From the IMG/VR virus record IMGVR_UViG_3300045051_000365, positions 9,201 through 73,200 of that record: a DNA stretch of 64,000 bases; one strand, given 5' to 3'. This document shows positions 2,817-64,000 of the stretch, piece by piece. Position 1 is the stretch's first letter. Each line of letters starts with the position of its first letter. Source of the DNA: a virus. The notes under the pieces were generated by a model that made no database searches, was not told the origin of the DNA, and saw only the letters and a list, made by a program, of their open reading frames with translations. A program made the position numbers and the translations under genes.

Positions 2817-3563
2817 ATGGTCTATCTCGGTTCTATGTTTAATCAAGCGGTATTACTTCCGAATCTAAAAAACGGTTTAATATCGTGGTGGGATCTAGAA
2901 GAGATTTCGGGAAATCGCTTAGATTCTCACGGAACTAATCATCTAACCGCAACTAATGTTAGTTATCGAAATCATCTATCGACAAGTAGCCCGAACTTTC
3001 AATATTCATTGTCGGTAGCGAATAATTCTACATTAGAACTAGCTTCTAAGAGTTTTACAATCTGCTGTTCTGTAGCTTTGTTTCAATCACCCTCCGTTAA
3101 TGGGAATTATTTCTTTATTTTTAACAAAGACAATATTGGGACAAATGGAAGGGAATGGGGTTTAATTATAACGTCTGTCAGCGATCCAGTAGCGAATAGA
3201 TTTATATTCGGTATATTCAATAAAGATGTTGGTGGTGGACAAGATACTATAACCGCTAATAACGCAGGAAACTTTACTCTCAATACCCGTTACTGGATAG
3301 TCTGTAAATACAATAAATTATCGGGTACTATATCGATTCGAGTCAATAACGGAATATCCGATACTAAAACCTACAACAATGCTATCATTCACTCTAATAC
3401 TCCTAGTCCTGTTAGATTGAGTGCATCTTCGGGAACAGGTACACCTTACGGGTTAAACGGGGTAATTACAAAAGCCTGTATTTACGAGAAGATATTATCT
3501 GATGTTGAGGAGGATTATCTATGGAACAATGGAAGATTACGAAATTACCACGAATTATACTAG
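2817..3563 (+). CDS. LamG/ConA-like adhesin
   Basis: LISWWDLEE..DSHG.NHLT start and IYEKILSD.E...LWNNG end typical of LamG-like folds. Confidence 0.7.
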   Translation: MVYLGSMFNQAVLLPNLKNGLISWWDLEEISGNRLDSHGTNHLTATNVSYRNHLSTSSPNFQYSLSVANNSTLELASKSFTICCSVALFQSPSVNGNYFFIFNKDNIGTNGREWGLIITSVSDPVANRFIFGIFNKDVGGGQDTITANNAGNFTLNTRYWIVCKYNKLSGTISIRVNNGISDTKTYNNAIIHSNTPSPVRLSASSGTGTPYGLNGVITKACIYEKILSDVEEDYLWNNGRLRNYHELY

Positions 3564-3590
3564 CCGATATTCAAGCAGGAGGGATTTAAG

Positions 3591-4217
3591 ATGACGGTAG
3601 GATTGAGTGGGTTGTATACAACAGGGCAGACCGTACCGACAGAGCCTTTTAGCTTATCGATAAAACTCGGTAACAGTCAGTTTTATACATTTACTGGAAA
3701 TCACAACGGTTTGGTTTTACCGATTTCAACATCCGTGCCGTCATCTCTTACTTTTGGTGTTTGGATTAAACCATCCTCGGTTTCGGGTGTGCAGAATATT
3801 CTTTCCAAAAACAGTTATTTCGCCACGGGGACGGGAGATTTTCCCCTCTCGTTTAGTTTGACCAGTTCATCTTTAGGACTTAATCTCGATGGTGGCAACG
3901 ATTTCTCGCCCGACCTAACTCTAAATTCTTCGGGAGTGACGATTACTACCGGCGCGTGGAGACATATCGGGTTCAGTTATTCTAATAACGGACAATCTCG
4001 ACTATATATCGATGGAGTCGTAAACGCTTCAACGTCTATAAACTTTTCTGTTGGTAATAATTCAAGAAATTGGACACTGGGTAAGTGTAGTTTTTTTAAT
4101 TCGGGAGATAGTCAACTTCGTTATTCTGGAGATATGTTCGATCCGTTTATAGCGATCGGGGAACAATCTGATTTTTTGATAGCTACTTTATTCCAGAAGA
4201 AACCTTTTATTAACTAA
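3591..4217 (+). CDS. LamG/ConA-like adhesin
   Basis: TFGVWIKP, WRHIGFSY, RLYIDG, YSGDM.D motifs. Confidence 0.75.
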   Translation: MTVGLSGLYTTGQTVPTEPFSLSIKLGNSQFYTFTGNHNGLVLPISTSVPSSLTFGVWIKPSSVSGVQNILSKNSYFATGTGDFPLSFSLTSSSLGLNLDGGNDFSPDLTLNSSGVTITTGAWRHIGFSYSNNGQSRLYIDGVVNASTSINFSVGNNSRNWTLGKCSFFNSGDSQLRYSGDMFDPFIAIGEQSDFLIATLFQKKPFIN

Positions 4218-4222
4218 ACATC

Positions 4223-4639
4223 ATGCCTAAAACCTACGTCTCACCAGCCGCTCAAAACATCAACGCTCAAGTTCCGCAAACCTTCGCTAACAGTGACGGA
4301 ACCAACATCAAAACCTGTTACACGGCGGGAGCGGACGACTCGAATATCAAAGCGATTATCGTCACCAGTACCGATACGAGTTCTAAAGACATTCAATTTT
4401 ATATCTCTGACGGAACCAGTAACTTTATCCTGAGAAGGGTCACTATTCCCGCGAGTAGTGGAAACTCTACTTCCGCTTTACCCGTAGATTGTTTATCGGG
4501 CATACCGGGATTACCGTTCGACGCTCAGGGTAATCGTATCTTACAGTTGAGAAGAGGGTTTCAATTGCGGGCTAATTTAGTTAGCGCGGCTAGTTCGGGA
4601 ACTCAGATTAATGTTATAGCGATCGGGGAGGATTATTAA
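4223..4639 (+). CDS. Small beta-rich fibre-associated virion protein
   Basis: Position in fibre cluster, beta-sandwich-like sequence ending INVIAIGEDY, TAATG coupling to next gene. Confidence 0.55.
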   Translation: MPKTYVSPAAQNINAQVPQTFANSDGTNIKTCYTAGADDSNIKAIIVTSTDTSSKDIQFYISDGTSNFILRRVTIPASSGNSTSALPVDCLSGIPGLPFDAQGNRILQLRRGFQLRANLVSAASSGTQINVIAIGEDY

Positions 4640-5454
4640 TGCTAGGAATGAGAGGGATGGAGTTAGCGGCGGCTAAATTAATCAGATCGATCGGATCGGG
4701 ATTATTATTGTCAAACTCCGGGCAACTTTCTTTAGATACAAGCGTAGTTCCGAGTACACTTTACAACGGACTTGTATATAATTTTCCGTTCGATAATTTC
4801 GCTTACTCGATCGCCCAAGCCGCTAGTTTTAACAACGCGATCACGGGAAATAATTACAATAGTTCCCCGAAGCTCGGAACCCGATGCTTGGTAAATACCG
4901 GATCGGGATATACGCTCGATAGCAATGTCTGGCGAACGGTCAACTTCAATCGGGATTTCGGGGTCGCTTTTTGGTTTTATCCTACTGTGATTACAGGGGG
5001 ATCTAGTGCTTCACCTTTTGCAATAGACTCTATAACCACGAGTGGGTCTGCGTTTTGGATGTTTGTTGTTAATTTTTTCTCCCGAAATAGCGGGGGAAGC
5101 GGTACGACTGCCCCTCGATTAATAGCGAGAGACAATATCGATTTACAACTATCCAGCAGTCAGGTTGCGCTTAATACTTGGTGTCATGTAGCAGTTAGAT
5201 ATAGCGCGTCCTCTCGCAACTTTGTACTTTCTATCAACGGAGTCCATTACAATGCACCGGGAACGATCGGCACTGGCTTTACCGACGAAAATAGTTCGAG
5301 TTCGGCGCGGATTTATCTCTTCGGGGGAAGTAGCGGAACTTCCGACAACCTGAATCACACCGATCGCCTCGATCAGCTTCTCTGGTGGTATCGTAGACCG
5401 ACGGATTCCGAGATAGCCGCGCTCTACAACAACGGGAACGGACTTGAATTATAG
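4639..5454 (+). CDS. LamG/ConA-like adhesin
   Basis: FGVAFWFYP, NTWCHVAV.Y, LDQL..Y.R..TDSEIAALYNNGNG. Confidence 0.75.
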   Translation: MLGMRGMELAAAKLIRSIGSGLLLSNSGQLSLDTSVVPSTLYNGLVYNFPFDNFAYSIAQAASFNNAITGNNYNSSPKLGTRCLVNTGSGYTLDSNVWRTVNFNRDFGVAFWFYPTVITGGSSASPFAIDSITTSGSAFWMFVVNFFSRNSGGSGTTAPRLIARDNIDLQLSSSQVALNTWCHVAVRYSASSRNFVLSINGVHYNAPGTIGTGFTDENSSSSARIYLFGGSSGTSDNLNHTDRLDQLLWWYRRPTDSEIAALYNNGNGLEL

Positions 5455-5458
5455 GCAA

Positions 5459-5486
5459 AAATCACCCCCGATAAAGAGGGTGATTT
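5459..5486. terminator. Bidirectional hairpin between convergent genes
   Basis: AAATCACCC-loop-GGGTGATTT. Confidence 0.65.
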
Positions 5487-5503
5487 ATTAGCCTAAACCT
5501 CGA

Positions 5504-5662
5504 TTAAATACGGGGAGCCGAGGTACACGTCGGAGGAGAGACGATCGGGTAACATCGAAGACCGTGAGCCTCGTTAGAAGGTTTTTCGGTTTGAGCCAGA
5601 GCGGAACCGGCAAGGGAAGCGAAAACGAGAGCGGAAAGAGCGAGAGATTTTAAAAATTTCAT
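5504..5662 (-). CDS. 52-aa secreted peptide precursor (not in ORF track)
   Basis: MKFLKSLALSALVFASLAGSALA|QTEKPSNEAHGLRCYPIVSPPTCTSAPRI*. AGGTG RBS 8 nt upstream and hairpin terminator downstream. Confidence 0.8.
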   Translation of the reverse strand: MKFLKSLALSALVFASLAGSALAQTEKPSNEAHGLRCYPIVSPPTCTSAPRI

Positions 5663-5821
5663 ATAGATGCACCTGAATTAAAGTCTTGATACACCTATCT
5701 TTCCCCTCCGATTCGGAAGGGCGATCGGGGGAATTCTCGGAAATCTTAAAAAAACATACTTTTCTCTTACGTGAAACTGTCAGGAAGAAAGGTACAATCG
5801 TGTTGACGCTTTCCCGATACC

Positions 5822-8161
5822 ATGAATCTCTACTACCACGTTTTCGGAACCTGTAGGGAGAAATCCCTAAACGGATCGCAGGATAATCCCGCTTTTTGGC
5901 GAACATTAAACCCGATTTCGTGGGATAAAGTCCCAAGGCTAGATATAGCAAGCGTGGACGATAACAGAGGGACAAGCACTTTCGGACAACAATGGAAGAT
6001 TGTCACTAAATACAAGCAAATACAGGGAATTGGTTATATTTCCGAAACTAATTACAACGCGCGGGAAACCGGGGCTATAGATTTCGGATTCGGAGGAGGC
6101 GAAATTTATAGAACGTCCGCTAACTACTCTTCTCAAGGGTCGATCTCCGGACACACTCGACTCGGCTACGATGTCGAGATCGTCGCGGTCGTTCGGGTCA
6201 CGAATCCCGCCCATTTTCCACTAAATCCCTATCCCGTAGATCTTCCCGAATTCCCGATCCTACCCGACAAGGATTTTTCTGTAGAGATTCAATTCAGTAA
6301 TTACGAATACGACAACACCGGCGACGCGGAACAGAGGATCGTGGAATGGGCAGACCCGATCCGCGTTTTCAACCTCTCCCGATCCGCTCTCCGAACCGAA
6401 GATCTCGATCGCCTTCTCGATTTTCACGAGGCGAGGAAAGGGGCGAAAGGGGATTTTCTCTACCGGGATCTCTCGGACGATCGGGCTACTAGGATTCCCG
6501 TGAATCTCGGCAATGGGGCGAGTACGCAAGGCGTTTTATATCCCGACGCGGACGGAACTCGAACCGAGTTTATCCTGACAAAAGCTTACTCGTGCGGCGG
6601 AAGCGTCCACTACCGTCCGATTCTCTATCCCGACGCGGGACTCAAGATCTACCGCGGAAACACCGAACTAAGCGGGTACGTTGTCGCGCCGGATCGGATC
6701 GTTTTCGATAGCCCGCCATCCGCGGGACTATTGACATGGGAAGGAACTTTTAAAATTCCCTGTTCTTTCGAGAGCGATCGCCTCGACTATCGGCCGCTGG
6801 TCAAGACTATAGACGGGAATCCGACAACAATTAAAGGCGTTTTCGAGATCCCGAAATTCGTACTACGCGAGTCGAGAATCGAACCGGCGATCGTTCCCGC
6901 GGACGTGTTCGAGGGTAGCACGTCCCACGTTTTCGGGCTTAATCTTTACAAAGCCTCGACACTATCCCCCGAATTCCAGACTAATATTATCGACCTCTCT
7001 AGCGGGGAGCGAAAACGGTTCGCGCGTCGGGGGAAACCCTCGGACACTAATTCGCTACAGCAGAGAAAAACCTTACGCCAGCGAGATATAGAGTATCTAA
7101 CCTGCCTCTGGCTCTCTCACAAGGGAACCGGCGCGACGTTTCTTTTTCCCGATCTCCTGAACGGGGGAAACGTAATATCGCGATTTAACTCGAAATCCCT
7201 AAGCTACTCCAATCAGACGATCCAACGCGTCTACTCCCTCGGGGAACTCCAGATCCGACGATTCACGGACGGAGCTAGAACGGACGCGGGGACGGGGGGA
7301 TCGCTATCCTCTCCCGTACTCACGATCTGCCGGTCCGTACTGATCGAACTCGCGGACGGGGAAAAGCTCGGGTACACGAATCACTCGCGGGATCTAAGGA
7401 TCGACGGCGTGACGTACCGCGCCCGCCGCGCCCTCGATCCCACCGCGCTCGATCGCTCTCTCGGGTTTAACTCCGATAACGAGGAATTCCGCGGCGCGTT
7501 CACCGACGATCTAAAAGAATCCTTGATTCTCTCGCCCCGATTTCAAGAGGCAAAAATTATCACGGCCGTAGTGGACTGGCGAGATCTCCCCGACTCGCTT
7601 CTCGATCTACCCGACGAGCGGGTACAGATAGGATTTGTCGGGGAGATCGCCTCGAAAAGCGGCGAAACCTATACTCTCGAAAATTTAACCGAGGCGAGTA
7701 TCAAGCTCCGGCAATCGCGGGACGAACGGGTAACGCCCCTGTGCCGGTGGTTTTTCGGACAGGATAACGGCGACGGAACGGGATGCCGGAAAAGTATTCC
7801 GACCTACACGAGTTCGGTGCGAACCGTCACCGATCGCCGCGTTATCGAGGTCTACGGGGTATTCGATAACCTTTCATGGGGAACCCTGACGTTTTTAGAT
7901 GGCAAGAACAAGAGCGCGTCGTACCCGATCTATAGATCCGAGTCTTACCCCGCGTCCTCGGGAACTACGAGGATCGAGTTATTCACCGGCGCGTCCGATT
8001 CAATTTTCGCTCACGACAAGGTAAGACTAACCGCGGGATGCGATCGGACTTACGGGACGTGCCGAACGCTCTGGGACAATACGGGCAATTTCGGCGGGGT
8101 TCCCTCATCCGGGAATTTTATGCCCGGCGGAAAGTTCCTGTTCGCCTCCCCGACTCGGTAA
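5822..8161 (+). CDS. Fused tail-tip protein: two DUF2460 (TIGR02217, Dit-like) domains plus DUF2163/BR0599 (TIGR02218, hub-like)
   Basis: EQRIVEWADP..LLDFHEARKG..F.YRD; second copy PEFQTNIIDLSSGERKR..FLFPD; LGYTNHSRDL.IDG.TY; GCDRTYGTC...N..NFGG.P. Confidence 0.85.
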   Translation: MNLYYHVFGTCREKSLNGSQDNPAFWRTLNPISWDKVPRLDIASVDDNRGTSTFGQQWKIVTKYKQIQGIGYISETNYNARETGAIDFGFGGGEIYRTSANYSSQGSISGHTRLGYDVEIVAVVRVTNPAHFPLNPYPVDLPEFPILPDKDFSVEIQFSNYEYDNTGDAEQRIVEWADPIRVFNLSRSALRTEDLDRLLDFHEARKGAKGDFLYRDLSDDRATRIPVNLGNGASTQGVLYPDADGTRTEFILTKAYSCGGSVHYRPILYPDAGLKIYRGNTELSGYVVAPDRIVFDSPPSAGLLTWEGTFKIPCSFESDRLDYRPLVKTIDGNPTTIKGVFEIPKFVLRESRIEPAIVPADVFEGSTSHVFGLNLYKASTLSPEFQTNIIDLSSGERKRFARRGKPSDTNSLQQRKTLRQRDIEYLTCLWLSHKGTGATFLFPDLLNGGNVISRFNSKSLSYSNQTIQRVYSLGELQIRRFTDGARTDAGTGGSLSSPVLTICRSVLIELADGEKLGYTNHSRDLRIDGVTYRARRALDPTALDRSLGFNSDNEEFRGAFTDDLKESLILSPRFQEAKIITAVVDWRDLPDSLLDLPDERVQIGFVGEIASKSGETYTLENLTEASIKLRQSRDERVTPLCRWFFGQDNGDGTGCRKSIPTYTSSVRTVTDRRVIEVYGVFDNLSWGTLTFLDGKNKSASYPIYRSESYPASSGTTRIELFTGASDSIFAHDKVRLTAGCDRTYGTCRTLWDNTGNFGGVPSSGNFMPGGKFLFASPTR

Positions 8162-8188
8162 AATTACAGATAGAACGAAAGATCTATT

Positions 8189-8692
8189 ATGGAAAAAACT
8201 ATGACTGTCGCTACTTTTCCCACGGCCGTCACGCCGCCCCCGTCGCAATGGACGATTCAGGATTGGGGGGTCGTATTCAGTATTTCGATCGCCGTCGGTT
8301 CCGCGGTAGGTTCGTATTTCATGCTCCGATCGAGATCACAGGCTAAAGAGCTAGACGAGGCTACAATCGAGCGAGCCGCCGAATTAAGTGAGGCTCAGGC
8401 GGGCAGATTAGAGAAAATGATGGAACGCTTAGATACGAGCGTAGGACACCTTGACGGGTCGATCCGACAACTCGGGGAGAAGATCACGGGACTAACCGAA
8501 CGGCTCGCCGTCGTGGAGACAAAACAGCAAGTGGCCGATCAGATCATGCCGGTATACGAGCGGCAGTTCGGGGAACTCCGCTCGCGACAGGACGCGCTCG
8601 CTCATCGGCTCGTGACGATCCAACGCGGGCAAACGATGATTTTTTCTCACCTTAAAAAATTAACAGAAACTATCAACTCCTCAACAAAATGA
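8189..8692 (+). CDS. Single-TM plus coiled-coil protein upstream of endolysin (lysis-associated?)
   Basis: Hydrophobic WGVVFSISIAVGSAVGSYF segment then heptad-rich region; ATGA overlap with the endolysin. Confidence 0.5.
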   Translation: MEKTMTVATFPTAVTPPPSQWTIQDWGVVFSISIAVGSAVGSYFMLRSRSQAKELDEATIERAAELSEAQAGRLEKMMERLDTSVGHLDGSIRQLGEKITGLTERLAVVETKQQVADQIMPVYERQFGELRSRQDALAHRLVTIQRGQTMIFSHLKKLTETINSSTK

Positions 8693-9444
8693 GCAATAGT
8701 CTAATCGCCCTCCGGGATACGCTTCTAAAATCCTACCCGATCGACTCCTCCGATCCGAATCCCCCGGACGGATTCGCGACGATCCCGGTGAAGAAAGGGG
8801 AAAAAATTACCTATAACTGGATTCGCCCGAAAGGAAAGCACTTACTTTTCGAGGGAACCGAGATCCGGGGGGACTTCTGGAACTGGTACGCTTTCCGCGA
8901 TCACTTCGACAACTCGAATATCGATTCTCCCGTGGTTCGAGAGGATCAAGTAGAGTTTATCCTGAATCACCCGATCGCCGATTCCCTATTTAAGAGCCTC
9001 GACAATTGCCTGAAAAGATTCGAGATAACCACGATCCCCCGCGTTCGACACTTTATCTCGCAATGCGCCCACGAATCAATGGGATTCCGGCAATTCAGCG
9101 AGTTCGCATCGGGCGCGGCTTACGAGGGACGGAGAGATCTCGGGAACGTCCGCCCTGGTGACGGTCGCCGATTCAAGGGGGTCGGGGCGATTCAGGTCAC
9201 GGGACGGCACAACTACCAAAGATTCGCGGATTTCATCGGCGATCCCCGCGTGATGGAAGGGTGGCGGTACGTTGTCACGCGCTACCCGTTCGAGATCTCG
9301 GGATTCTGGTGGATGGATAACGCGATGAACTCGCTCATCGATCGGGGCGCGAGTGTAGAGCGAGTAACCCGACGCGTGAACGGAGGATACAACGGACTTA
9401 GCGATAGAATCAAATATTACAATAGAGCTTTACAAGCTATCTAA
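8689..9444 (+). CDS. Endolysin, glycoside hydrolase family 19
   Basis: FISQCAHES, YEGRRDLGN..GDG.RFKG.G.IQ.TGR.NY, VNGGYNG. Confidence 0.9.
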   Translation: MSNSLIALRDTLLKSYPIDSSDPNPPDGFATIPVKKGEKITYNWIRPKGKHLLFEGTEIRGDFWNWYAFRDHFDNSNIDSPVVREDQVEFILNHPIADSLFKSLDNCLKRFEITTIPRVRHFISQCAHESMGFRQFSEFASGAAYEGRRDLGNVRPGDGRRFKGVGAIQVTGRHNYQRFADFIGDPRVMEGWRYVVTRYPFEISGFWWMDNAMNSLIDRGASVERVTRRVNGGYNGLSDRIKYYNRALQAI

Positions 9445-9462
9445 AATCCTCTCTCTAATTTA

Positions 9463-9492
9463 CTTGACAATTCAAGAAAGCTTTAGTATTAT
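9463..9492 (+). promoter_or_regulatory. sigma70-type promoter with overlapping palindromic operator
   Basis: TTGACA-17-TATTAT; CTTGA-CAAT-TCAAG inverted repeat. Confidence 0.75.
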
Positions 9493-9515
9493 TTAGCTAA
9501 TCGAGCTTTCTGGAG

Positions 9516-22344: not shown

Positions 22345-22668
22345 ATGAAAAGAATCTTGGAACTTCTATCGACAGGGCTATCTTTCGCCCTATTAATTAG
22401 CTCTCTGCCGTTCCTCGCGCTTTTCTGGATCGGACACGGGATCGTCGCGTTATCGGCTTTTATTCTGGAAGAGATCCTAGAGATAGCGACGGATCTACTG
22501 CCGAAGTACGATCGCCCGAGGAAACAGAAACTCACGAAAGATCCCGAGATCGAGAAAATGCTTTCCTGTAAATATTATTTCGAGGATCATTTACCGGGGG
22601 CAACTATCAAGTGCGCCGTTAATCCCTGTAGCTCGTGTCTCGATTGCACGACGGGAGAAAAACCATGA
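22345..22668 (+). CDS. Membrane protein with C-terminal Cys cluster
   Basis: Two hydrophobic helices; CKY..CAVNPC..C..C. Confidence 0.6.
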   Translation: MKRILELLSTGLSFALLISSLPFLALFWIGHGIVALSAFILEEILEIATDLLPKYDRPRKQKLTKDPEIEKMLSCKYYFEDHLPGATIKCAVNPCSSCLDCTTGEKP

Positions 22669-37910: not shown

Positions 37911-38339
37911 ATGGACGAAAAAATAATTCAAGAAATAATCGATCGCTACCGAGGGGATGAGTATTTATCTTTCGTGGAAATAGCGGACGATCTGAAAATA
38001 GAATATCGTTCGCTAGTGGAAAAATTACAGCCACTAGCGAACGAGATCGAACTGAAAGTATTTAACCGCTCGGGCAATAGAAACGGACACGCGATAGATA
38101 CGAGTCCGTTCCTGCTAGACTATTACTATATAGTCGATTGCGATCTTAAAATTCTCGCCGAAACGTTCGGGTATAGCGATTACAGCAACGCTCTTAGAGC
38201 GATGCGAAAAAATAAACACTATATCGGCAAAAATAAAAATATGTTCTCAGAACTTCCCCATATTCCCCCGTTTCCGAAGAATACTAAAACCATGCGGGAT
38301 AGGAAAAAAAATAGGGATAAAATAAAAATAAATGATTAA
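37911..38339 (+). CDS. Putative HTH DNA-binding protein
   Basis: LSFVEIADDLKI and LAETFGYS helix-turn-helix-like segments. Confidence 0.5.
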   Translation: MDEKIIQEIIDRYRGDEYLSFVEIADDLKIEYRSLVEKLQPLANEIELKVFNRSGNRNGHAIDTSPFLLDYYYIVDCDLKILAETFGYSDYSNALRAMRKNKHYIGKNKNMFSELPHIPPFPKNTKTMRDRKKNRDKIKIND

Positions 38340-50500: not shown

Positions 50501-53423
50501 TAACGTCGATGATCCCCTCCCGATTAAATCCAATATCGCCCGGATTAAAGCGAATATCGCCCGGACGAGATTATCGCTACGGGATCAGCAGAACGACCTC
50601 GCCGAATTCTACGCGACCACGGCGATCGAGATCGAGGCGACAAACAAATTAATCGGGCTAACATCCCGAACCGTATCGAGTCAGGTCAAGACTTTCGCCC
50701 GCGACCAAACACTGATCGAACTCGGAAAACTTTACAAACAACTCGCGTTCGAGCAATCGAAGCTTAATGGGACACTCAAGGGCGATCCCCTCGAAATTAA
50801 AGCGAATATCGCCCGAATCCAACTTCAGATCGAGCAAGCGAAACTATCCCTACGGGATCAGTCTTTCGATCTCGTGGATTACTACACGAACCTTCAAAAA
50901 CAGATAGTCGATCTGAGGGTATCGATCGAGGATTTCCAGATTCAATCGTCCCGCGAGGTGCGGGGATTCCGGGAAGCCTACGGGGATATGATCCGCGGGT
51001 TACAGCGGTCGCTTATCGAGTCCGAGAACGAATTTCGGGCGAGTCAGCGTAGCCTAGAGGGGCAACGTTTACGGGTATCGATGCTAGGGAGTAGAACCCC
51101 CGGCGTGAATTCCCTACAGAAACAGATAGACGAGCTAATCCTACAGTACCGGGATGAAATCGCGTCGATTCAGGGAGAGGCGGACGGATTGCGGACAAAA
51201 CCGCTCGATATTCAAGATCAATCGATCCAGTTCGCCCGACAGTTGCGGGATCTGCAAGAGCAGATCTACGACGCGGAACGGAATCGCCTCAAACAGCTAC
51301 GGGATTTCTGGACGCAACAGGTACAGATAGCTAAAGAGATCGAGCGTCAGCAGTTAACATTTAAGTCGCTTAACGAGATATGGGCGGGAATTCTGGAGAA
51401 TTCCAAGAAACTCCTCGCCCGATCGGGAGAGATCGCCGGCGGGAAATCCCCGAAAATAGCACCGGCGATCGGGGGCGCGGGTAACGCCGGGGCGATGAAG
51501 TCCGAGGCGACGCGGCAGGGAACCCCGAACAATCCCCGAACATTACAGCGCGGGGATTACATCGACTACGGCAACGGACAGATCTATAAATACGATCCCT
51601 CGCCTACCTACGATCCGAAAACCCGCACGTACCGGGAGACGGTCAACGCCGATAATATTCAACATCCCTCGGTAGTGCAACAGGTTCAGACCTCGGGATC
51701 GGCGGAATTCGATCGTCTTCTGATGCGCTCGGGACTTTATAAAAATTGGGAGGGATTCGCCCGCACCGTTCTCAACCCGAATCTACAGCCCCTTACACCC
51801 GAGGAACGGGCGAACTACAACGCGGGCAACGTTCCGAAATACTCGGGAGCGTTATCGGGTCAACCGATGGCGAATATCCCGCTCGCCCCACTGCCCTCGT
51901 TCGACTACGATCGGGCGCGGGAACTCGACACGCAGATCCGCATTAACCGGGAACGAACGCTAGAGAATCAGAAGGCCGAAAACTTACTCAAGCTCGAACG
52001 GGCGAGACGGGAAAACCTCGATCGGATCGCGGGATTGATCTTACAGACGCGAGAGAGTCGGATTCAAGCCGAGATCGGACTGAGGGACACGGGCGATAGT
52101 TCCTCCGATCTAATGCTTTCCTCGAAAGGGTATCTAACTTTCTCGGAAAGAGTCGAGCAGACCCGTCGCAACGGGAACCGCGAGATCGAGAAACAGCGCG
52201 AGGGTATCCAGTCACAGATCCGATCGCTCGGACAACTTACCGATAGTTTCGCTAAAAACTCGGAAGAAACGCGGGCGCGGCTACTGAAAGACACCGGCAA
52301 CGATGACGCTTTCAACGCCCTCGCCGCGGAGAACAAGCGGAATCTAGCTATCCTAGAAGGCTATAAAGCCCTCGACGATCAACTCGCCAAGTACGGGCAG
52401 ATCCGGGGCGACGCGGCCGCTACCCGAGCGATCGAGGAAGAACGGGTGACGGCTCTCGAACGCTACAACAATCTGATCGCCGACGGTATCGACGCGAGTA
52501 ACCGGATGAACCCCCTCGGGAACCTGTTCAATACCGGGGAATCCCGAAAACTCCGGATAGAAGCGGACTTCGCGCGCCGTCGCCTCGAACTCAAGCGGTA
52601 CGCGGAAGAGGGATCGCTTTCCCCGCAAAAACTCGGGGAGATGTCGGCCGCGCTCGATAAAATGCAACAGGCCGATCTCGCGTCCGCGTTTATCGAGGCT
52701 AATCCCGCGGTAGGGGCGTTCGGGGATCTGTTACGGGCCGCGTTCACCGGCGGGCGGGATACCTTGCAACAGATGCTAAACGTTCTGATCAACTTCCTAC
52801 AGAAGATCGGGGAGATGGCGGCCAATCAACTACTAATGCAGATCTTCGGGGGAGGGGGGAAAGCGTCACCCGTCCCGACCGGGGGCGGATCGGGATTCGG
52901 ATCGGGAATTCTCGGGGCTTTAGTCTCGGGAATCATAGGCGGGGCTACCGGGGGGTCGTCGTCTTTCGCGTCGCTCGCCCCGACATCTTTCACGGGCGCG
53001 TCCTCTTATTCCCTCGGAACGGGACTTAGCCTCTTTAGTTCCGGCGGGAAAATCGGAGGCGACGCGCCCGTAGAGAAAAATATGGTTTCCGCGTTCCGGC
53101 GCGAGCGGTCTATGAGCGGGGGAAGAAATCCCCGGCTGATCGTGGCTAACGAGGACGAGTACGTTATCCCCGCGAACGAGGCCAGATCCTATCTAGAATA
53201 TAAAAACGCGCCGGTTAAAAATTACGCCGGCGGGGGATTCGTCGGGGGAACCGGCTATAATGTCACGACCTCGAATAATTCTTCCTCCGATCGCTCTCTC
53301 GCGATCACGAATGTCAGTAACATCACGATAGAATCGCGGAACGATATGGGGTATTCTCTAACCCAACTCAAAGAGCGCGAGAACGCGCAGAACGAGCGGA
53401 CAAAAAGGAGATTTTTCGGATGA
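41514..53423 (+). CDS. Tape measure protein, 3969 aa, with inserted domains
   Basis: N-terminal LGTLEIGLGLNT; AINQMAS...EEF.QQL.E tape-measure motif; C-terminal F..GG...E.V.P...YAGGG.VG. Confidence 0.92.
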   Translation: MTLSLGTLEIGLGLNTADYDRKIARAENRISSLKRQVERVGMTARIKVEVDDRRLYELNDHLKLKRDDLDKTAAHYRRNPIRVRVEDDSLIRLNRELRELQRVSVDIRVPSRLVVEHRFSGYQDRVEKAIERLSVTVRNSSPRSRNPLEKLFNLTVGNAVGGFFTGAGAYAGVKAGKGFYKGFDTDFDAIGREFGIYTKDKVDRVKKGLDTGFRELLGFPDGLKDAKRLFQKNFDTFLDNITDPGFYRDLEDLFVAMAQAKFDPSILKAGAKLTESQAADKKIFEEARGKVVSRFEETVKEDFVRAAGAFMKLSAQPLRVRKRVQLRDSSEMARQQSGIFGREYDAVRDKIDASDNIVLMTGGVDPTKSKRGKPNVDTTYQIAAGIQALFPKAFVDTITPYHTTSIEDLEQGAYNRILRGSILPFIKEQKDALANLFGEKMVNDIIANLEQFHPVESILRQSVEKGYNDDSIRMATKALSASMMFPDKKITLAGASGGGFVVEEAIAILNQIAKRFPELRKAISNIKGFAIGTPMAGMTATSGGIKGEYAKFQAYIGTLDHIGKGFFGDTLYAGDRKTAKPNEIERLDNEIALPGGILNPKNNLQTVIGGWGYDHEVGKMLADLGKPVSEFLLLLSSFLNNRVMRPEEAKRLTGVFEKIKSLKVGQDANAYIDDLAAIIKEIGSVNKKIGGILDTKELGTLLRKTRQLARATGSEGAKQFEGQIAREIEGVLRSGLGIDNVAGLGERGGGQTSLVVRNISDLIRDAFNELARRQGKPSPYPESDFQPLDPFLESIATIEDALRKSAEELNLPAGDFGSLIQLWKAGKATEPPVRGYADEFRSVYRDFLKELGKLSKLGKNYFQKSEDGRTKVDFYKLLWDSAKIAAAYGQPPYAEMSGKYREQTFNTPEEKQMEKALLAFFKLYEKDAEIFKKQYLEIALEAKKLYAAGDPAGLQKLTELLSTSKFSRIAELGKNIKTAKSGRIGKEKALGEGTNYKRLAGFLDKLLESLVRYEVSNRQDTSGFGELAAAGYGINAILDFVNLAAERGKEFARVPDLLKSSQIQSALEDPEIAKKFEIKAENMKSALQEVYANLETPLERKTAEIVEAYVSGISKLIDSIDAEIVARKVSTPVTIDGRLREMAVNRLQTPDRNNEIVNIAGNEDTASLLLQTAKREIFNALNLSDKSLWKGANATIQIFDRLVIAARKVESAFLGRIPAAMAAKNIAAPVVAPMALGAMTLAGLPDDVAHGIYQSLYNVFHELYKTGSDKYVQELAAHIKDALDIAVPADANPAIRGIIQGVNMATEQIANAVIAPIQSVANSIVEGESAGTAYATATTVTGFAVETLFGTARKAIAPKALAPEKLVELEAKGMALGASLAKLTDSLSRITNNLPALPPGVDPFKREYYTRDRLREIARNQGLNVLPGGSKKTPSVDDYWKAIISKVPPETLIKLLLATNEKGRTKAGREALAGMSYAASPIDKGFVTTIGQSVATVRKMAKGSLAEAEPDPRKLAEYYRQLQKIKGEIAKVRANPELDTSGLNRNLNALVINIENLQGDIQRSIGNLTKGANNELDSARLNTREIGENAIDDLDDALGNRSPSWKGKRSGKNLIKGLEIGTAEEARVFIGQIDALFRDINKRLELNQKQGGKFLIYARREHLDSIMNTGYQALHPNSNKDRSLRKRFENAIRPDYSPEGVSPIYGFWHPDAAGKFIGTGGGINRPRALMAFGTHNYGGREPVALEGLFNPDRMMLHAGDSLGMASGLASSAPMSRDMVERITSRFGRLIEADIPKMFEKFRIATGDEEFSSDTYGMEGILWDKFLLTAVGALHTYDGQIGGVRPFEDGTRELAKKKGIELQDLEWVQDPNASDWDKLLGRDGMFQERTQPGAIKQQMSRFQELYKLWQDPSLPAGKRKDIFIELSVALLKQQGELRTIATAIGADMSTLMFTAGKVGASNFQKGLQIGVATNEAEKIAYQNALDIVDETNKGLGNASPSKKAMKAMRFFYEGLALGARQIRFGLGLETRFDKEVSDFTFFVGMKSKEARKAVLQALKEMGLDRGERLQVIDEVLGSMDSGTFTSPRAFQAMKRATVIARPKTTREEILGDWNKKRDNLFNTLDSIEKAGVSSGFTRGIVSGIRVAVAQLDGFIGSLSTAGKLLRTIDKELDAATGGMFNLRKAALAVVGGFALLKGAEFLLQPLYFGIQNLPFTVQQAVTNSLQSLVELQRIKVNLDVAGVDNADEAIGQLRDRANELGISFKESVKQYAQFRIVTTDTPLEAQGDSIYRGFQSALAVRNTNPQQQTETFRAINQMASRSVLSVEEFTQQLTESGGLYDALIVAARAMGLTTAEFYRQASAGQLLSQDVIPRLSAEYERMSAGGLGESGKTLQAEINRYQNNLEQLSMGVGEKIGAVAYPALQLLNVALGGVNDNLDALLIVARAALNVTIGLVTKSVLQFIAATRLGQLVLSSYNAALFTTGVRAGETATRMQMLSATAKATGVVFNSAISVMAIPLAVTAGLQLFFAIWNAGSEDLRNNLQTIKESKKVLEDLGKIKPESNRQNFLEKVFTPEQTKKDLSEGNWWDKTVALFTWSPFREAGKVGFDSYGTSKDIRNINDTLKEGETVLKGYRDQLSDVTGIDKFIDSLQGLRNKLAQVRAERAIAAGKGDSAGVARANTVEQELMKQEQEAIDKRFGSLGSRIAADLQAYESSLAKLEESYQKGNVSVDEYTDKSTKLKAVIAQLKAEQQNYLNILKDQEKQYKKLQFGFKRTLNAQENRDFINARKSLNRQIGNEKGFAAGQLNEYEFNVRVREESLQTAKEKIASLQTTATETGAKLNTRITEAADKTLSTYFGKDLERLGVGSFSEAIAKNLLSPKMIEDVMDEFSGDLESNAALKNILEMAKRYVSTRQDILSSEKEIQAINREIITERKRRQINEKQAGNEVLIAGKQEKLYSSTPTGKLRSFQSSETRLSLEELYKQLAIEQERLAANVDDPLPIKSNIARIKANIARTRLSLRDQQNDLAEFYATTAIEIEATNKLIGLTSRTVSSQVKTFARDQTLIELGKLYKQLAFEQSKLNGTLKGDPLEIKANIARIQLQIEQAKLSLRDQSFDLVDYYTNLQKQIVDLRVSIEDFQIQSSREVRGFREAYGDMIRGLQRSLIESENEFRASQRSLEGQRLRVSMLGSRTPGVNSLQKQIDELILQYRDEIASIQGEADGLRTKPLDIQDQSIQFARQLRDLQEQIYDAERNRLKQLRDFWTQQVQIAKEIERQQLTFKSLNEIWAGILENSKKLLARSGEIAGGKSPKIAPAIGGAGNAGAMKSEATRQGTPNNPRTLQRGDYIDYGNGQIYKYDPSPTYDPKTRTYRETVNADNIQHPSVVQQVQTSGSAEFDRLLMRSGLYKNWEGFARTVLNPNLQPLTPEERANYNAGNVPKYSGALSGQPMANIPLAPLPSFDYDRARELDTQIRINRERTLENQKAENLLKLERARRENLDRIAGLILQTRESRIQAEIGLRDTGDSSSDLMLSSKGYLTFSERVEQTRRNGNREIEKQREGIQSQIRSLGQLTDSFAKNSEETRARLLKDTGNDDAFNALAAENKRNLAILEGYKALDDQLAKYGQIRGDAAATRAIEEERVTALERYNNLIADGIDASNRMNPLGNLFNTGESRKLRIEADFARRRLELKRYAEEGSLSPQKLGEMSAALDKMQQADLASAFIEANPAVGAFGDLLRAAFTGGRDTLQQMLNVLINFLQKIGEMAANQLLMQIFGGGGKASPVPTGGGSGFGSGILGALVSGIIGGATGGSSSFASLAPTSFTGASSYSLGTGLSLFSSGGKIGGDAPVEKNMVSAFRRERSMSGGRNPRLIVANEDEYVIPANEARSYLEYKNAPVKNYAGGGFVGGTGYNVTTSNNSSSDRSLAITNVSNITIESRNDMGYSLTQLKERENAQNERTKRRFFG

Positions 53424-53626
53424 GCGAGCTATCGGAGAAAAAGCGGGTTCTAGCGATCGTCGGGGTATTTCTCGGGGGGGCGGCCGCGCTGACTTTTCTC
53501 GATTCGTGCCGGGGGGATCGGGTTCTATACGGAAATCACTGCATTGTCTACCGAAACTCGGTAGCGATGGATTCTACACGGAAGAATGATAATGGTGAAC
53601 ACGCCTGTTATTGCGCCAATCGGTGA
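53420..53626 (+). CDS. Small membrane/lipoprotein-like ORF
   Basis: ATGA overlap; KKR followed by a hydrophobic stretch then Cys. Confidence 0.4.
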   Translation: MSELSEKKRVLAIVGVFLGGAAALTFLDSCRGDRVLYGNHCIVYRNSVAMDSTRKNDNGEHACYCANR

Positions 53627-58323: not shown

Positions 58324-59358
58324 ATGCCTATTAAATCTTTGACCACTAGAAACGCCCGATTTCCGATGCTCGGAAAAATCCGTAAGGGAGACGAGAAAAA
58401 AGCGGGAAGTAACCGACCGGGTTCGGATCTAACCTATTTTCGCGTCGATTCCGACATCGACGGGATTAACGAAAAATTCACCCGAGTCTACGGGAAAGAA
58501 CCAGATCAACTCGACTGCCTTCTCCCGTTCGCTTCCGTCGAACAAGTTTTTCCCGCGTGGATGGAAGAATGGGGCAAGTCCTCGATCGTTACCCGATGCG
58601 ACGAAGAAACCCGCGTACTTTACGAGGAAAAAGGAAAAATTATCGCTACCCGTCCCCTACCCTGCAAGAAACTAATAGAAGGGGCTGACGGCAATTTCGG
58701 GACGTGCGAGTGTAAGCAAGTAGGAAGACTGCACGTCGTATTACCGAAGCTCGGGGAGATGGGCTATTTCGAGGTCGAAACCCATTCAAAATGGGACATC
58801 ATCGGACTAACCGAACAACTTCTAGCCGTGGAAACCGCCGCGGGGAGTCTGACCGGGATTCCTTTCCTACTAGAGCGCGGGCCGCGGGAACTTTCCTATC
58901 CTCTCCCGGACGGAAAACGGGGAAGAAAGACTTTTAATCTACTCTCGATCCGCGTTCATCCCGATCGCGCCGCCAAAGTTTTGCAAGTCATTGAAACCCG
59001 CGCTTTCCAACAGTTCACGGGCGAGCCTTCCCGCCCCGAACTGCCTTCTTCGGGACAGCAAAAAGCGTTACCCGCGTCCAACGGGAACGAGTGGGCATCT
59101 AGCAAAAAAGACGGGATTCAGTGGGCGGTCAAACAGGGGATGTCGCTATCGGAAGCGACCCTAATAGCCGATCGCTGTACAACCAAGCGAGAGTATTTTG
59201 ATACGGTCAATTCCCTGTTAAAGGATCGAGTTAATTTCACCGAAGCGGAGATCGTCGGGAACGAGATTAATCCCCAAGTATCCGCGGAAATCGACGCGAT
59301 GATCGAGGATAGACCACTACTCGAAACCGTCCCCGCGGATGAAGACGAGGGTTTTTAA
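58324..59358 (+). CDS. Recombination directionality factor-like (gp3-like) / putative single-strand annealing protein
   Basis: FPMLGKIRKG, RCD, C..C.C...GRL, ETHS; acidic DEDEGF end. Confidence 0.65.
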   Translation: MPIKSLTTRNARFPMLGKIRKGDEKKAGSNRPGSDLTYFRVDSDIDGINEKFTRVYGKEPDQLDCLLPFASVEQVFPAWMEEWGKSSIVTRCDEETRVLYEEKGKIIATRPLPCKKLIEGADGNFGTCECKQVGRLHVVLPKLGEMGYFEVETHSKWDIIGLTEQLLAVETAAGSLTGIPFLLERGPRELSYPLPDGKRGRKTFNLLSIRVHPDRAAKVLQVIETRAFQQFTGEPSRPELPSSGQQKALPASNGNEWASSKKDGIQWAVKQGMSLSEATLIADRCTTKREYFDTVNSLLKDRVNFTEAEIVGNEINPQVSAEIDAMIEDRPLLETVPADEDEGF

Positions 59359-63585: not shown

Positions 63586-64000
63586 CTACGCGCCGATCAA
63601 TCGATCTTGTAGAAGTCGGTAGAATTCCTTTTGAACCTCTTTCGGCGCGGACGTTAAATAACCCTCTACCTCTTCCTTGCTAACCTCGCGCGTCGTCGCG
63701 AATTGAATTTCCTCGATACGGGCGAAAAGCGATTGCAATTCCCCGACGATAACGGGAGCCTTAACGCGGATGTCGGCGTTGCGGAACATCTCCGCGGCTA
63801 GGTTCGGGCTTAAATCGATACCTCCCTTTTTCCGATAATCGGGATCGCCCGTCAACTCGTTAATCGATTTCCAGTTGCCGTTTAAGTAAGTAACGAAAGA
63901 ATCGGTATCGAGTCCGAAAACCGCGGCGAGAACCCGCATATTCCCGAGGTCGGGGCAGGACGCGATACGCGGTAATTCCCAATTCTGAATCGCCCCGACG
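63586..64000 (-). CDS. XRE/cI-like repressor, 5'-truncated by window
   Basis: Frame open to window end: VGAIQNWE....CPDLGNMRVLAAVFGL. Confidence 0.7.
   Translation of the reverse strand, partial: VGAIQNWELPRIASCPDLGNMRVLAAVFGLDTDSFVTYLNGNWKSINELTGDPDYRKKGGIDLSPNLAAEMFRNADIRVKAPVIVGELQSLFARIEEIQFATTREVSKEEVEGYLTSAPKEVQKEFYRLLQDRLIGA

What the first reader, a model, noticed from the sequence alone, without database searches (positions are those of the whole stretch)
5504..5662. Hidden secreted 29-aa, two-Cys peptide gene: candidate phage signal or exclusion peptide
Seen: an antisense standalone gene below the ORF-track cutoff, with an RBS, a textbook Sec signal (MKFLK, hydrophobic core, ALA cleavage), mature QTEKPSNEAHGLRCYPIVSPPTCTSAPRI with a possible disulfide loop, and its own terminator. 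Known: Bacillus arbitrium AimP precursors are similarly sized signal-peptide genes, and antisense morons are often expressed in lysogens. Inference: an exported peptide for lysis-lysogeny communication or receptor blocking in a cyanobacterial phage. No AimR-like TPR receptor is visible in this window, so any receptor would be of another kind or lie elsewhere.
Basis: partly seen in the sequence, partly recalled or inferred. Interest (0 to 1): 0.8.

Follow-up and report, generated by a model that had tools for sequence, protein, structure and literature searches.

The report
Mobile phage gene for secreted mini-peptide
A real, conserved but fast-evolving 52-codon gene for an exported two-cysteine peptide sits backwards among the tail genes of a probable cyanobacterial phage and moves between related phages as an add-on gene; its function is untested, and blocking entry of rival phages is my leading guess.

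Summary
The ORF at 5504-5662 (-) is there as described (52 aa, AGGTG 7 nt before ATG, strong hairpin plus T-run after the stop). ORF length alone is not beyond chance. Homology makes it a gene. An exhaustive HMMER search of 1.84 billion proteins found one other cluster (E 4e-12), and locus scans gave five full-length variants (a sixth is partial), all on phage contigs. All share a signal-peptide-like N-terminus ending AxA/VxA, an NEAxG[LM] motif and a C-x6/8-C pair. The loop and C-terminal tail vary, and pN is below pS.

The gene is an add-on ("moron"). Among three complete related phages it sits at the same site in two and about 32 kb away in the third, each time antisense to all neighbours. 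It is absent from three other relatives and from 42 of 43 related contigs sampled around the tail-hub gene.

The arbitrium reading is not supported: no adjacent receptor, no TPR match in the genome, and a likely diderm host (HIP1 enrichment). My best guess (about 0.35) is a periplasmic factor blocking phage entry, by analogy with Llp/Cor, HK97 gp15 and Spackle. Expression, export and function are untested.

The parts
5504..5662 (-). Peptide gene, 52 codons plus stop (precursor)
   Evidence: Single copy in the 73.2-kb genome, with an open frame of only 57 aa. Homologues found.
5594..5662 (-). Codons 1-23: signal-peptide-like N-terminus (MKFLK, uncharged hydrophobic core, ALA before Q24)
   Evidence: Read. 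An AxA/VxA motif before Q/T is kept in 5 of 5 variants. AF2 helix at residues 2-23. Weak match of residues 1-30 to the N-terminus of NCBIfam PatX (E 0.0062, 17.3 bits, below the cut-off of 30). Cleavage has not been tested.
5507..5593 (-). Codons 24-52: predicted mature 29-aa peptide
   Evidence: Disordered in the AF2 model (pLDDT about 50).
5558..5575 (-). NEAHGL, the best-conserved motif of the family (NEAxG[LM])
   Evidence: N, E, A and G are invariant in 5 of 5 variants.
5525..5554 (-). Cys37 to Cys46 loop (C-x8-C here; C-x6-C in the other variants)
   Evidence: Codons checked. Alignments. MAFFT aligns only the first Cys as an invariant column; the second Cys pairs up when the loop length is allowed to differ. 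A disulfide bond is inferred, not shown.
5670..5674 (-). Shine-Dalgarno-like AGGTG, 7 nt before the ATG
   Evidence: Read. No clear equivalent in the two other contexts.
5455..5486 (-). Intrinsic-terminator-like hairpin (5459-5486) plus T-run, starting 17 nt after the stop codon. It also folds on the + strand.
   Evidence: -23.5 kcal/mol, z -5.46. The homologue in L002 has its own terminator of 12 pairs plus a T-run.
5663..5821 (.). Divergent non-coding region between the peptide gene and the hub gene. No promoter was identified for the peptide gene.
   Evidence: One search finds only a + strand promoter-like site (5771-5798), pointing at the hub gene. No sigma-70-like site lies on the peptide's strand, and the same holds in the two other contexts.
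4639..5454 (+). Left neighbour: last gene of the variable tail-fibre cassette (LamG/ConA-like)
   Evidence: Pfam PF13385, E 2.4e-8.
5822..8161 (+). Right neighbour: tail distal/hub fusion protein (DUF2460 + phiJL001 Gp84 N-terminal domain + BR0599)
   Evidence: Pfam. It is 75-79% identical in the closest relatives.

Best explanation
The locus is a self-contained add-on gene (a 'moron') in a probable temperate cyanobacterial siphovirus. It is read against the flow of the surrounding tail genes and ends at its own terminator.

It encodes a 52-aa precursor. A 23-aa Sec-type signal peptide would be removed after ALA. That would leave a 29-aa peptide in the periplasm (or thylakoid lumen) of a diderm host. 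The mature peptide has an acidic/polar lead-in, a conserved NEAxG[LM] motif and one loop closed by two cysteines.

I infer that it binds an envelope-exposed target. The most likely effect is that cells carrying the phage become refractory to entry of the same or related phages (superinfection exclusion). That would work either by jamming the receptor from the periplasmic side or by interfering with the incoming tail tip. The variable loop would be the contact surface in an arms race.

Shown: the gene exists, it is conserved, it has a mobile antisense layout, it has a terminator, and it evolves fast.
Inferred: export and cleavage, the disulfide bond, expression from the prophage, the target, and the exclusion function.

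Odds: about 0.85 that this is a real gene for an exported peptide and a moron; about 0.35 that it acts in exclusion.
For: 1. Homology. A profile of the first two sequences, searched against 1,835,955,588 proteins, gave 2 hits at E<=0.001: the query itself and P0002 (E 4.2e-12). There are five full-length variants plus one partial with a further change (L050).

2. Constraint. pN is below pS in all 3 pairs (0.29 against 0.59 for G002 against the G001 type). The G001-type protein sits on 65+43+1+1 contigs as four sequence variants. These differ only in the upstream extension and the signal region, never in the mature part.

3. Moron anatomy.
- G002 carries it at the same site as the window.
- The close relative G001 (median ORF identity 71%) carries it about 32 kb away. 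There it is again the only + strand gene among - strand neighbours.
- In L003 the hub gene follows its upstream gene after 28 nt, with no such gene between them.
- 0 of 3 further relatives (G003-G005) carry it.
- Only 1 of 43 distinct hub-bearing contigs (45 loci) carries it near the hub gene.
- Terminators follow it in 2 of 3 contexts.

4. Fast evolution. The peptide is 29-31% identical between G000 and the other two types. The other ORF pairs have medians of 71% (38 pairs) and 75% (40 pairs).

5. Lifestyle. An integrase-like gene lies beside tRNA-Leu, and an RDF-like gene is present. Repressor homologues are present. IMG/VR classes G002 as a provirus.

6. Precedents, from passages I read.
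- Llp and Cor are small exported phage proteins with an intramolecular disulfide bond. They are encoded next to the receptor-binding or tail-tip gene and block the receptor from the periplasm. That paper notes that many small phage proteins may be exclusion factors (PMC9586334).
Against: - There is no expression data: no RNA run is listed.
- No sigma-70-like promoter lies on the peptide's strand in any of 3 contexts.
- The GC of the insert (0.46) equals that of the left-hand neighbours (0.47), so the moron GC criterion gives no signal.
- G001 carries the gene but has no recognisable integrase of either family. The integrase-like proteins of G000 and G002 score below Pfam's cut-off (23.2-23.8 and 20.3 bits against 27.1). 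The G000 repressor gene looks split across the record ends. Expression 'from a prophage' is therefore not secure.
- The peptide differs from Llp/Cor: it has no lipobox Cys and its mature part is about half their size. It matches no PHROG, Pfam or PADLOC family.
- In G001 the gene is not next to tail-fibre genes.
- Nothing identifies a target.
- The host is inferred only from HIP1 enrichment.
Confidence: 0.35

Rival explanations
1. Another periplasmic or lumenal effector, not aimed at phage entry. The exported loop peptide would inhibit or tune a host or phage envelope enzyme. Candidates are a protease, a peptidoglycan hydrolase (as in a lysozyme inhibitor), or the holin-like protein's large extracytoplasmic domain (as in an antiholin).
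For: It shares the anatomy of the main reading: an exported, disulfide-constrained variable loop. A holin-like gene (8189-8692; one TM helix plus a long C-terminal domain; weak holin PHROG matches) and a GH19-type endolysin (8689-9444) lie 2.5-3 kb downstream. T4 Spackle is a periplasmic inhibitor of a tail lysozyme (PMC7677548; search listing and start of the abstract only).
Against: There is no linkage to the lysis genes in G001. No similarity to any inhibitor family. The peptide is antisense to the lysis genes. No partner was tested.
Confidence: 0.25
2. A communication peptide. The exported precursor would be trimmed in the periplasm, and a fragment would be sensed by neighbouring cells or by the phage's lysis-lysogeny switch. 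The models are arbitrium, or PatX in filamentous cyanobacteria.
For: Its size and Sec-type N-terminus fit criteria 1-2 of the RRNPP signature (PMC10075063, passages). PatX (56 aa) is exported to the periplasm by a Sec signal, cleaved there, and its C-terminal hexapeptide spreads along the filament (PMC12756182, passages). This shows the route exists in a diderm cyanobacterium. The window peptide's first 30 residues weakly resemble the PatX model (E 0.0062). The C-terminal tails vary between variants (APRI, SPRF, GSL, DRKGL).
Against: - No 250-500-aa TPR protein is adjacent in the window or among the neighbours scanned with Pfam in the other contexts.
- There are 0 TPR_12 and 0 TPR_8 matches in the genome.
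- There is no RG[ST]GR motif.
- The PatX score is below the cut-off and covers the signal region only.
- The conserved part is the middle and the loop, not the tail. P0002 and P0003 differ only in the tail, which suggests the tail is weakly constrained.
- RRNPP systems are described for Gram-positive Firmicutes and their mobile elements.
Confidence: 0.12
3. A small membrane toxin of the type I toxin-antitoxin kind (Hok-like). The N-terminal hydrophobic stretch would be an uncleaved membrane anchor, with a short Cys-bearing tail outside. It would serve to stabilise the prophage or abort infection.
For: It is about 50 aa, with an N-terminal hydrophobic helix and a polar tail with two Cys. The gene is stand-alone and antisense. 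The resemblance to Hok architecture is recalled from memory, not tested.
Against: There is no Pfam match, Hok/Gef included, at E<=0.01. The hydrophobic stretch is Ala/Ser-rich and ends in a small-x-small motif with a Pro or Gly just before it in 5 of 5 variants, which is the signal-peptidase pattern. No antisense RNA or fold-back elements were identified, and I did not search for them systematically.
Confidence: 0.08
4. A chance ORF or decaying remnant with no function.
For: ORF length is within chance (496 of 2000 shuffles). No promoter was found. No expression data exist.
Against: The frame, signal, motif and Cys pair are conserved across 29-51% identical variants in three genomic contexts, with pN below pS. 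The mature part is identical on more than 100 contigs.
Confidence: 0.04

Closest known systems
Phage superinfection-exclusion lipoproteins Llp (T5) and Cor (T1, phi80, N15, HK022)
   Same: They are small exported phage proteins with one intramolecular disulfide bond. They act from the periplasmic side and are encoded beside the receptor-binding or tail-tip gene (PMC9586334, passages). Here the gene lies between the tail-fibre cassette and the tail-hub gene in 2 of 3 contexts.
   Different: There is no lipobox Cys, so this is not a lipoprotein. The mature part is 28-34 aa; I recall Llp as about 60 aa. The gene is antisense. No sequence match was found. The host is probably a cyanobacterium. The function is untested.
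HK97 gp15 moron (inner-membrane exclusion protein in the tail operon)
   Same: It is an add-on transcription unit inside the tail genes, absent from related phages, and encodes a small envelope protein (PMC3594210).
   Different: [quoted passage not shown] No homology was found.
Arbitrium AimP / RRNPP propeptides
   Same: A short Sec-type precursor encoded by a temperate phage.
   Different: There is no adjacent TPR receptor and no TPR match in the genome. The conserved part is not the C-terminal peptide. The host is probably diderm rather than a Firmicute.
PatX of heterocyst-forming cyanobacteria (NCBIfam NF047413)
   Same: A precursor of about 50-56 aa with a Sec signal, sent to the periplasm of a cyanobacterium (PMC12756182). 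There is weak N-terminal similarity (E 0.0062).
   Different: The score of 17.3 is below the cut-off of 30. Only 1 of 5 variants matches. The match covers the signal region only. There is no RG[ST]GR motif. The gene is phage-borne.
T4 Spackle
   Same: A periplasmic phage protein that excludes superinfecting phage (PMC7677548, abstract start only).
   Different: I recall Spackle as about 100 aa and folded. It is an early gene of a lytic phage. No similarity was found.

Membership tests
Moron (as defined in PMC3594210) | Extra DNA compared with related phages | tested here: met
   It is absent upstream of the hub gene in L003 (28-nt gap). It is absent from G003-G005. It is present near the hub gene in only 1 of 43 distinct related contigs. 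In G001 it sits at a different site.
Moron (as defined in PMC3594210) | Own terminator | tested here: met
   Window hairpin at -23.5 kcal/mol, z -5.46, plus a T-run. L002 has 12 pairs plus a T-run. None is seen in L052, where a convergent gene abuts the stop codon.
Moron (as defined in PMC3594210) | Own promoter | tested here: inconclusive
   No sigma-70-like site lies on the peptide's strand in 3 of 3 contexts. The scan covers only the E. coli-type consensus. The antisense orientation means a promoter of its own must exist if the gene is expressed at all.
Moron (as defined in PMC3594210) | [quoted passage not shown] | tested here: inconclusive
   The insert is 0.46, the left neighbour 0.47 and the hub gene 0.54. 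GC3 is 0.42 for the peptide gene against 0.61 for the hub gene. The whole fibre cassette is GC-poor, so there is no clean contrast.
Moron (as defined in PMC3594210) | Expressed from the repressed prophage | not testable with these tools
   No RNA run is listed.
RRNPP / arbitrium (five criteria of PMC10075063) | Propeptide of 10-100 aa | tested here: met
   49-54 aa.
RRNPP / arbitrium (five criteria of PMC10075063) | Propeptide secreted via Sec | tested here: inconclusive
   The features fit by eye, AF2 gives a helix at residues 2-23, and there is a weak match to the PatX signal region. No SignalP was available.
RRNPP / arbitrium (five criteria of PMC10075063) | Directly adjacent receptor of 250-500 aa | tested here: not met
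   Window neighbours: a 271-aa LamG-like protein and the 779-aa tail hub. G002 neighbours: a 69-aa ORF and the hub. G001-type neighbours: ORFs of 130, 159 and 164 aa.
RRNPP / arbitrium (five criteria of PMC10075063) | Receptor with TPR repeats | tested here: not met
   No TPR match in any neighbour scanned with Pfam. PF13424 and PF13181 give 0 matches in the 73.2-kb genome, while the controls ring in 14 and 13 of 14 genomes. Only two TPR models were tried.
Llp/Cor exclusion lipoproteins | Lipoprotein signal with a lipobox Cys | tested here: not met
   No Cys before residue 37 in any of the 5 variants.
Llp/Cor exclusion lipoproteins | Intramolecular disulfide bond | tested here: inconclusive
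   There are exactly two Cys in the mature part of 5 of 5 variants. Bond formation cannot be tested here.
Llp/Cor exclusion lipoproteins | Encoded beside the receptor-binding or tail-tip gene | tested here: inconclusive
   True in G000 and G002, not in G001.
PatX (NCBIfam NF047413) | Score over the curated cut-off, and an RG[ST]GR motif | tested here: not met
   17.3 bits against a cut-off of 30, covering residues 1-30 only, in 1 of 5 members. The motif is absent from all 5 sequences.
Hok/Gef type I toxins | Match to the family model | tested here: not met
   0 Pfam families at E<=0.01.

The most novel reading that the evidence does not exclude
The peptide is a phage-made periplasmic signal. 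In filamentous cyanobacteria the periplasm is shared along the filament, and the host's own PatX signal travels by that route. A prophage-encoded exported peptide could therefore tell neighbouring cells 'this filament is already lysogenised or infected'. It could set immunity or the lysis-lysogeny choice across a multicellular host. That would be the first peptide communication system of a phage outside Gram-positive bacteria, and it would use a receptor that is not a TPR protein.
Probability: 0.08. Interest if true: 0.9.

Novelty: new variant of a known kind. Interest (0 to 1): 0.42.

Why it matters
Small phage genes are routinely missed, and most have no assigned function. This is a clean case of a 3-kDa exported, disulfide-loop peptide family. 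It is confined to one lineage of freshwater and soil phages as far as 1.84 billion proteins show. It is mobile within that lineage and evolves much faster than the rest of the genome.

If it blocks phage entry, it would be a minimal, non-lipoprotein exclusion factor, and one of the few such factors described for cyanobacteria. My searches turned up none, but they were not exhaustive. Its variable loop could point to the receptor or tail component these phages use. If it is a signal instead, it would extend phage peptide communication to diderm, multicellular hosts.

Either way it is cheap to test, because the peptide can be synthesised.

Tried and rejected
Database and locus searches that gave nothing or little:
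- The word-indexed protein search with the window peptide, and with the first two-sequence alignment, found only the query.
- Locus scans with the window peptide as first row found nothing (viral; metagenome: 15 pattern matches, none confirmed). Confirmation uses the first row, so I re-ordered the alignment with P0002 first. That gave 3 metagenome and 6 viral loci.
- Megablast of 3500-9500 against cultured phages gave no match.
- tblastn of P0002 against cultured phages gave no match.
- The hub protein against cultured phages gave 34 records, all under 60% identity. The listed ones were 26-32% identical, from Rhodobacter, Roseobacter and Paracoccus phages with GTA-like tails. This allows no host inference.
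- PDB sequences gave only signal-like matches at E>=0.29.
- ESM Atlas: best score 0.85 for the whole protein, and no usable hit for the mature part.
- PADLOC gave 0 matches.
- PHROGs gave one match at E 0.0092 with no stretch passing on its own.

Structure: AF2 gave no fold for the mature part (mean pLDDT 62), so I ran no fold search. I did not use complex prediction because I can name no partner.

Sequencing runs: no RNA holder was listed. laid contigs only. The ORF is fully covered in X1 alone (two contigs, no other letters). X2-X4 leave parts of it without cover, which says nothing either way.

Host: I could not scan cyanobacterial genomes in six frames. That scan returned 2 loci from one MAG labelled Crocinitomicaceae, possibly phage contigs binned with it.

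Readings considered and dropped:
- o-spanin or lipoprotein: no lipobox Cys, and the gene is antisense to the lysis genes.
- PatX: no RG[ST]GR motif.
- Bowman-Birk-like protease-inhibitor loop: a resemblance of SPPxC recalled from memory. It is not kept in the other variants and was not tested.
- The overlapping 133-aa TTG ORF at 5574-5975 (-): no equivalent in L002.

Literature: searches turned up no description of this peptide family. It has no name, so a text search cannot exclude one. I did not ask for supplements. The supplementary tables of PMC10075063 may list viral candidates that I did not see.

Full report
WHAT IS THERE. The window is bases 9201-73200 of a 73.2-kb virus record that CheckV rates 100% complete. 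AGGTG ends 7 nt before the ATG. Seventeen nucleotides after the stop lies a hairpin at 5459-5486, followed by UUUUUG. It folds at -23.5 kcal/mol (z -5.46; 0 of 200 shuffles as good). It also folds on the plus strand (z -4.96), so it could end the tail-fibre transcript as well.

The gene lies in a 367-nt gap between the last gene of a tail-fibre cassette (4639-5454, LamG-like) and a tail distal/hub fusion gene (5822-8161; DUF2460, Gp84 N-terminal domain, BR0599). It is antisense to both. A holin-like gene and a GH19-type endolysin follow the hub gene.

IS IT MORE THAN CHANCE? Not by length. In 496 of 2000 shuffles the gap contains an ATG ORF at least this long. The case rests on relatives.

A phage contig whose hub protein is 75% identical (L002, record G002) has a 53-codon ORF at the same place and on the same antisense strand. 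That ORF has the same build and its own 12-pair terminator. A profile of the two sequences, scored by HMMER against all 1,835,955,588 representative proteins, returned two proteins at E<=0.001: the query and a 49-aa protein, P0002 (E 4.2e-12). Its 90% cluster holds a 54-aa sister, P0003. With P0002 as first row, locus scans found 3 metagenome and 6 viral loci. These carry a fifth variant.

All five full-length variants share the following:
- M-K near the start;
- an uncharged hydrophobic stretch ending in AxA or VxA before Q or T;
- a polar, acidic lead-in;
- NEAxG[LM];
- two cysteines spaced by 6 residues (four variants) or 8 residues (the window).

The loop residues and the tail after the second Cys differ. 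P0002 and P0003 differ only in that tail.

Non-synonymous differences are rarer than synonymous ones in all three pairs that have DNA (pN/pS of 0.47/0.69, 0.44/0.69 and 0.29/0.59). dS is saturated, so this is only qualitative. The fifth variant was called by gene finders as an 84-aa protein from an upstream start. It sits on 65+43+1+1 contigs as four sequence variants, and their differences lie in the upstream extension and the signal region, never in the mature part. The upstream extension is not open in the window (open frame 57 aa), so the shared MK start is the likely one.

No longer protein contains this module. The exhaustive search had no length limit and found none.

AN ADD-ON GENE THAT MOVES. 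I compared six records. G001 and G002 are close relatives of the window's genome. Median identity of ORF pairs is 71% (38 pairs) and 75% (40 pairs), and the hub protein is 78% and 75% identical.

G002 has the peptide gene at the window's site. G001 has it elsewhere, upstream of the homologue of window gene 37911-38339, about 32 kb away in window terms. There it is again the only plus-strand gene among minus-strand neighbours. Two G001-type contigs even differ in the gene on its right-hand side (L051 against L052).

G003-G005 are more distant relatives of 74, 67 and 91% completeness. They have no copy anywhere. A six-frame HMM scan of all 45 hub-bearing loci (43 distinct contigs, 337 kb) found the family only on the G002 contig. 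These loci reach only 3-6 kb either side of the hub gene. In L003 (hub 79% identical) the hub gene starts 28 nt after its upstream gene.

So three features of a moron as that term is defined hold: extra DNA relative to kin, an independent orientation, and its own terminator (PMC3594210, passages). A promoter could not be shown, and GC content gives no clean contrast.

The peptide is among the fastest-evolving genes of these phages. It is 29-31% identical between the window and the other two types, and 51% identical between those two.

HOST AND LIFESTYLE. The octamer GCGATCGC occurs 22 times in the window against 3.7 expected (maximum 8 in 100 shuffles). It occurs 24, 8 and 13 times in G000-G002 and 0 times in G003-G005. 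This palindrome is over-represented in many cyanobacteria (PMC5101192, passage). A cyanobacterial host is therefore likely but not shown. The DNA is held by four runs labelled rhizosphere metagenome.

A 370-aa integrase-like gene lies beside a tRNA-Leu gene (23.2-23.8 bits, below Pfam's 27.1). There is also an RDF-like gene (E 2.7e-30) and repressor homologues. G002 has the same integrase-like gene and is classed as a provirus. G001 has the repressor but no integrase of either family. Both ends of the G000 record match one repressor of G001.

HOW IT PROBABLY WORKS. In a diderm cell a Sec signal delivers to the periplasm, and in cyanobacteria also to the thylakoid lumen (PMC12756182, passages). 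The product would therefore be a peptide of about 3 kDa in the envelope rather than in the medium, with one disulfide-closed loop that varies between phages.

The nearest functional models are small exported phage proteins that protect the infected or lysogenic cell against further phage. Llp and Cor carry an intramolecular disulfide bond, act from the periplasm and are encoded beside the receptor-binding or tail-tip gene (PMC9586334). HK97 gp15 is a moron in the tail operon. Spackle is a periplasmic exclusion protein (abstract start only).

The position beside the fibre cassette in two of three contexts, the mobility, and the fast-changing loop all fit an arms-race exclusion factor. I put this at about 0.35. 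It rests wholly on analogy.

Other periplasmic roles get about 0.25. These would be an enzyme inhibitor or a lysis regulator acting on the holin-like protein's long outer domain.

There is no adjacent 250-500-aa protein, and there is no TPR match in the window's neighbours, in the other neighbours that I scanned with Pfam, or in the genome. The conservation pattern also points to the middle of the peptide, not to a C-terminal hexapeptide. PatX does show that a Sec-exported, periplasm-processed peptide signal exists in cyanobacteria. One variant weakly matches the PatX model over its signal region (E 0.0062, below cut-off). I therefore keep a signalling role at about 0.12.

A Hok-like membrane toxin (0.08) is disfavoured by the signal-peptidase motif kept in 5 of 5 variants and by the lack of any family match. 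A functionless ORF (0.04) is disfavoured by the conservation.

WHAT IS KNOWN AND WHAT IS NEW. The family matches nothing in Pfam, PHROGs (one marginal match), NCBIfam above cut-off, PADLOC, PDB sequences or the ESM Atlas. The kind of element is known: a moron encoding a small envelope protein. This form is not described in anything I found: a non-lipoprotein peptide of 28-34 aa with a disulfide loop, always antisense, in probable cyanobacterial phages.

LIMITS. The disulfide bond, export, timing of expression and target are all inferred.

Noticed in passing
window 22345-22668 (+); L002 5086-5325 (+); G001:C1:14333-14551 (-): A second small-protein family has an N-terminal membrane helix and a Cys-rich tail with a shared KCAVNPxxxCxxC motif (seen by eye). 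In G001 it sits directly upstream of the hub gene. In G002 it is in the same island as the peptide gene. In the window it is 17 kb away. Pfam gives no family.
   Followed up: partly
window 53420-53626 (+): A 68-aa ORF lies just after the giant 3969-aa gene. It has one membrane helix and a four-Cys tail ending CYCANR. It has homologues in G001 (48%) and G002 (40%), but none listed in G003-G005. Pfam gives no family.
   Followed up: partly
window 5354-5486: In run X2 several contigs break or diverge at 5456-5460, with loose ends of unrelated sequence to the left (tables 7-8). This suggests that phages with different fibre cassettes join the same downstream sequence at the terminator hairpin.
   Followed up: no
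G000:C1:1339-1818 (-) and 72786-73139 (-) (the second is window 63586-63939): Both record ends match one 192-aa repressor of G001 (81% and 75%), and a TnpB-like ORF (41-1408) lies between them.
   Followed up: partly
G001 (record of L052): G001 is a close relative of the window's phage but lacks the block of a 357-aa gene, the integrase-like gene and tRNA-Leu between the 369-aa gene and the repressor. It has no tyrosine or serine recombinase match.
   Followed up: partly
L002 4916-5521: The G002 island between the fibre genes and the hub gene holds three more small plus-strand ORFs (55, 79 and 69 aa) besides the peptide gene. The 55-aa ORF has a homologue upstream of the hub gene in L003.
   Followed up: no
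window 58324-59358 (+): A 344-aa protein with a Gp3-like recombination-directionality-factor domain (E 2.7e-30) lies 3 kb from the integrase-like gene.
   Followed up: no
window 2817-5454: The tail-fibre cassette is markedly GC-poorer (0.36-0.47) than the flanking DUF2793 fibre gene (0.55) and the hub gene (0.54). It is much shorter in G001. It looks like an exchanged host-range module.
   Followed up: no
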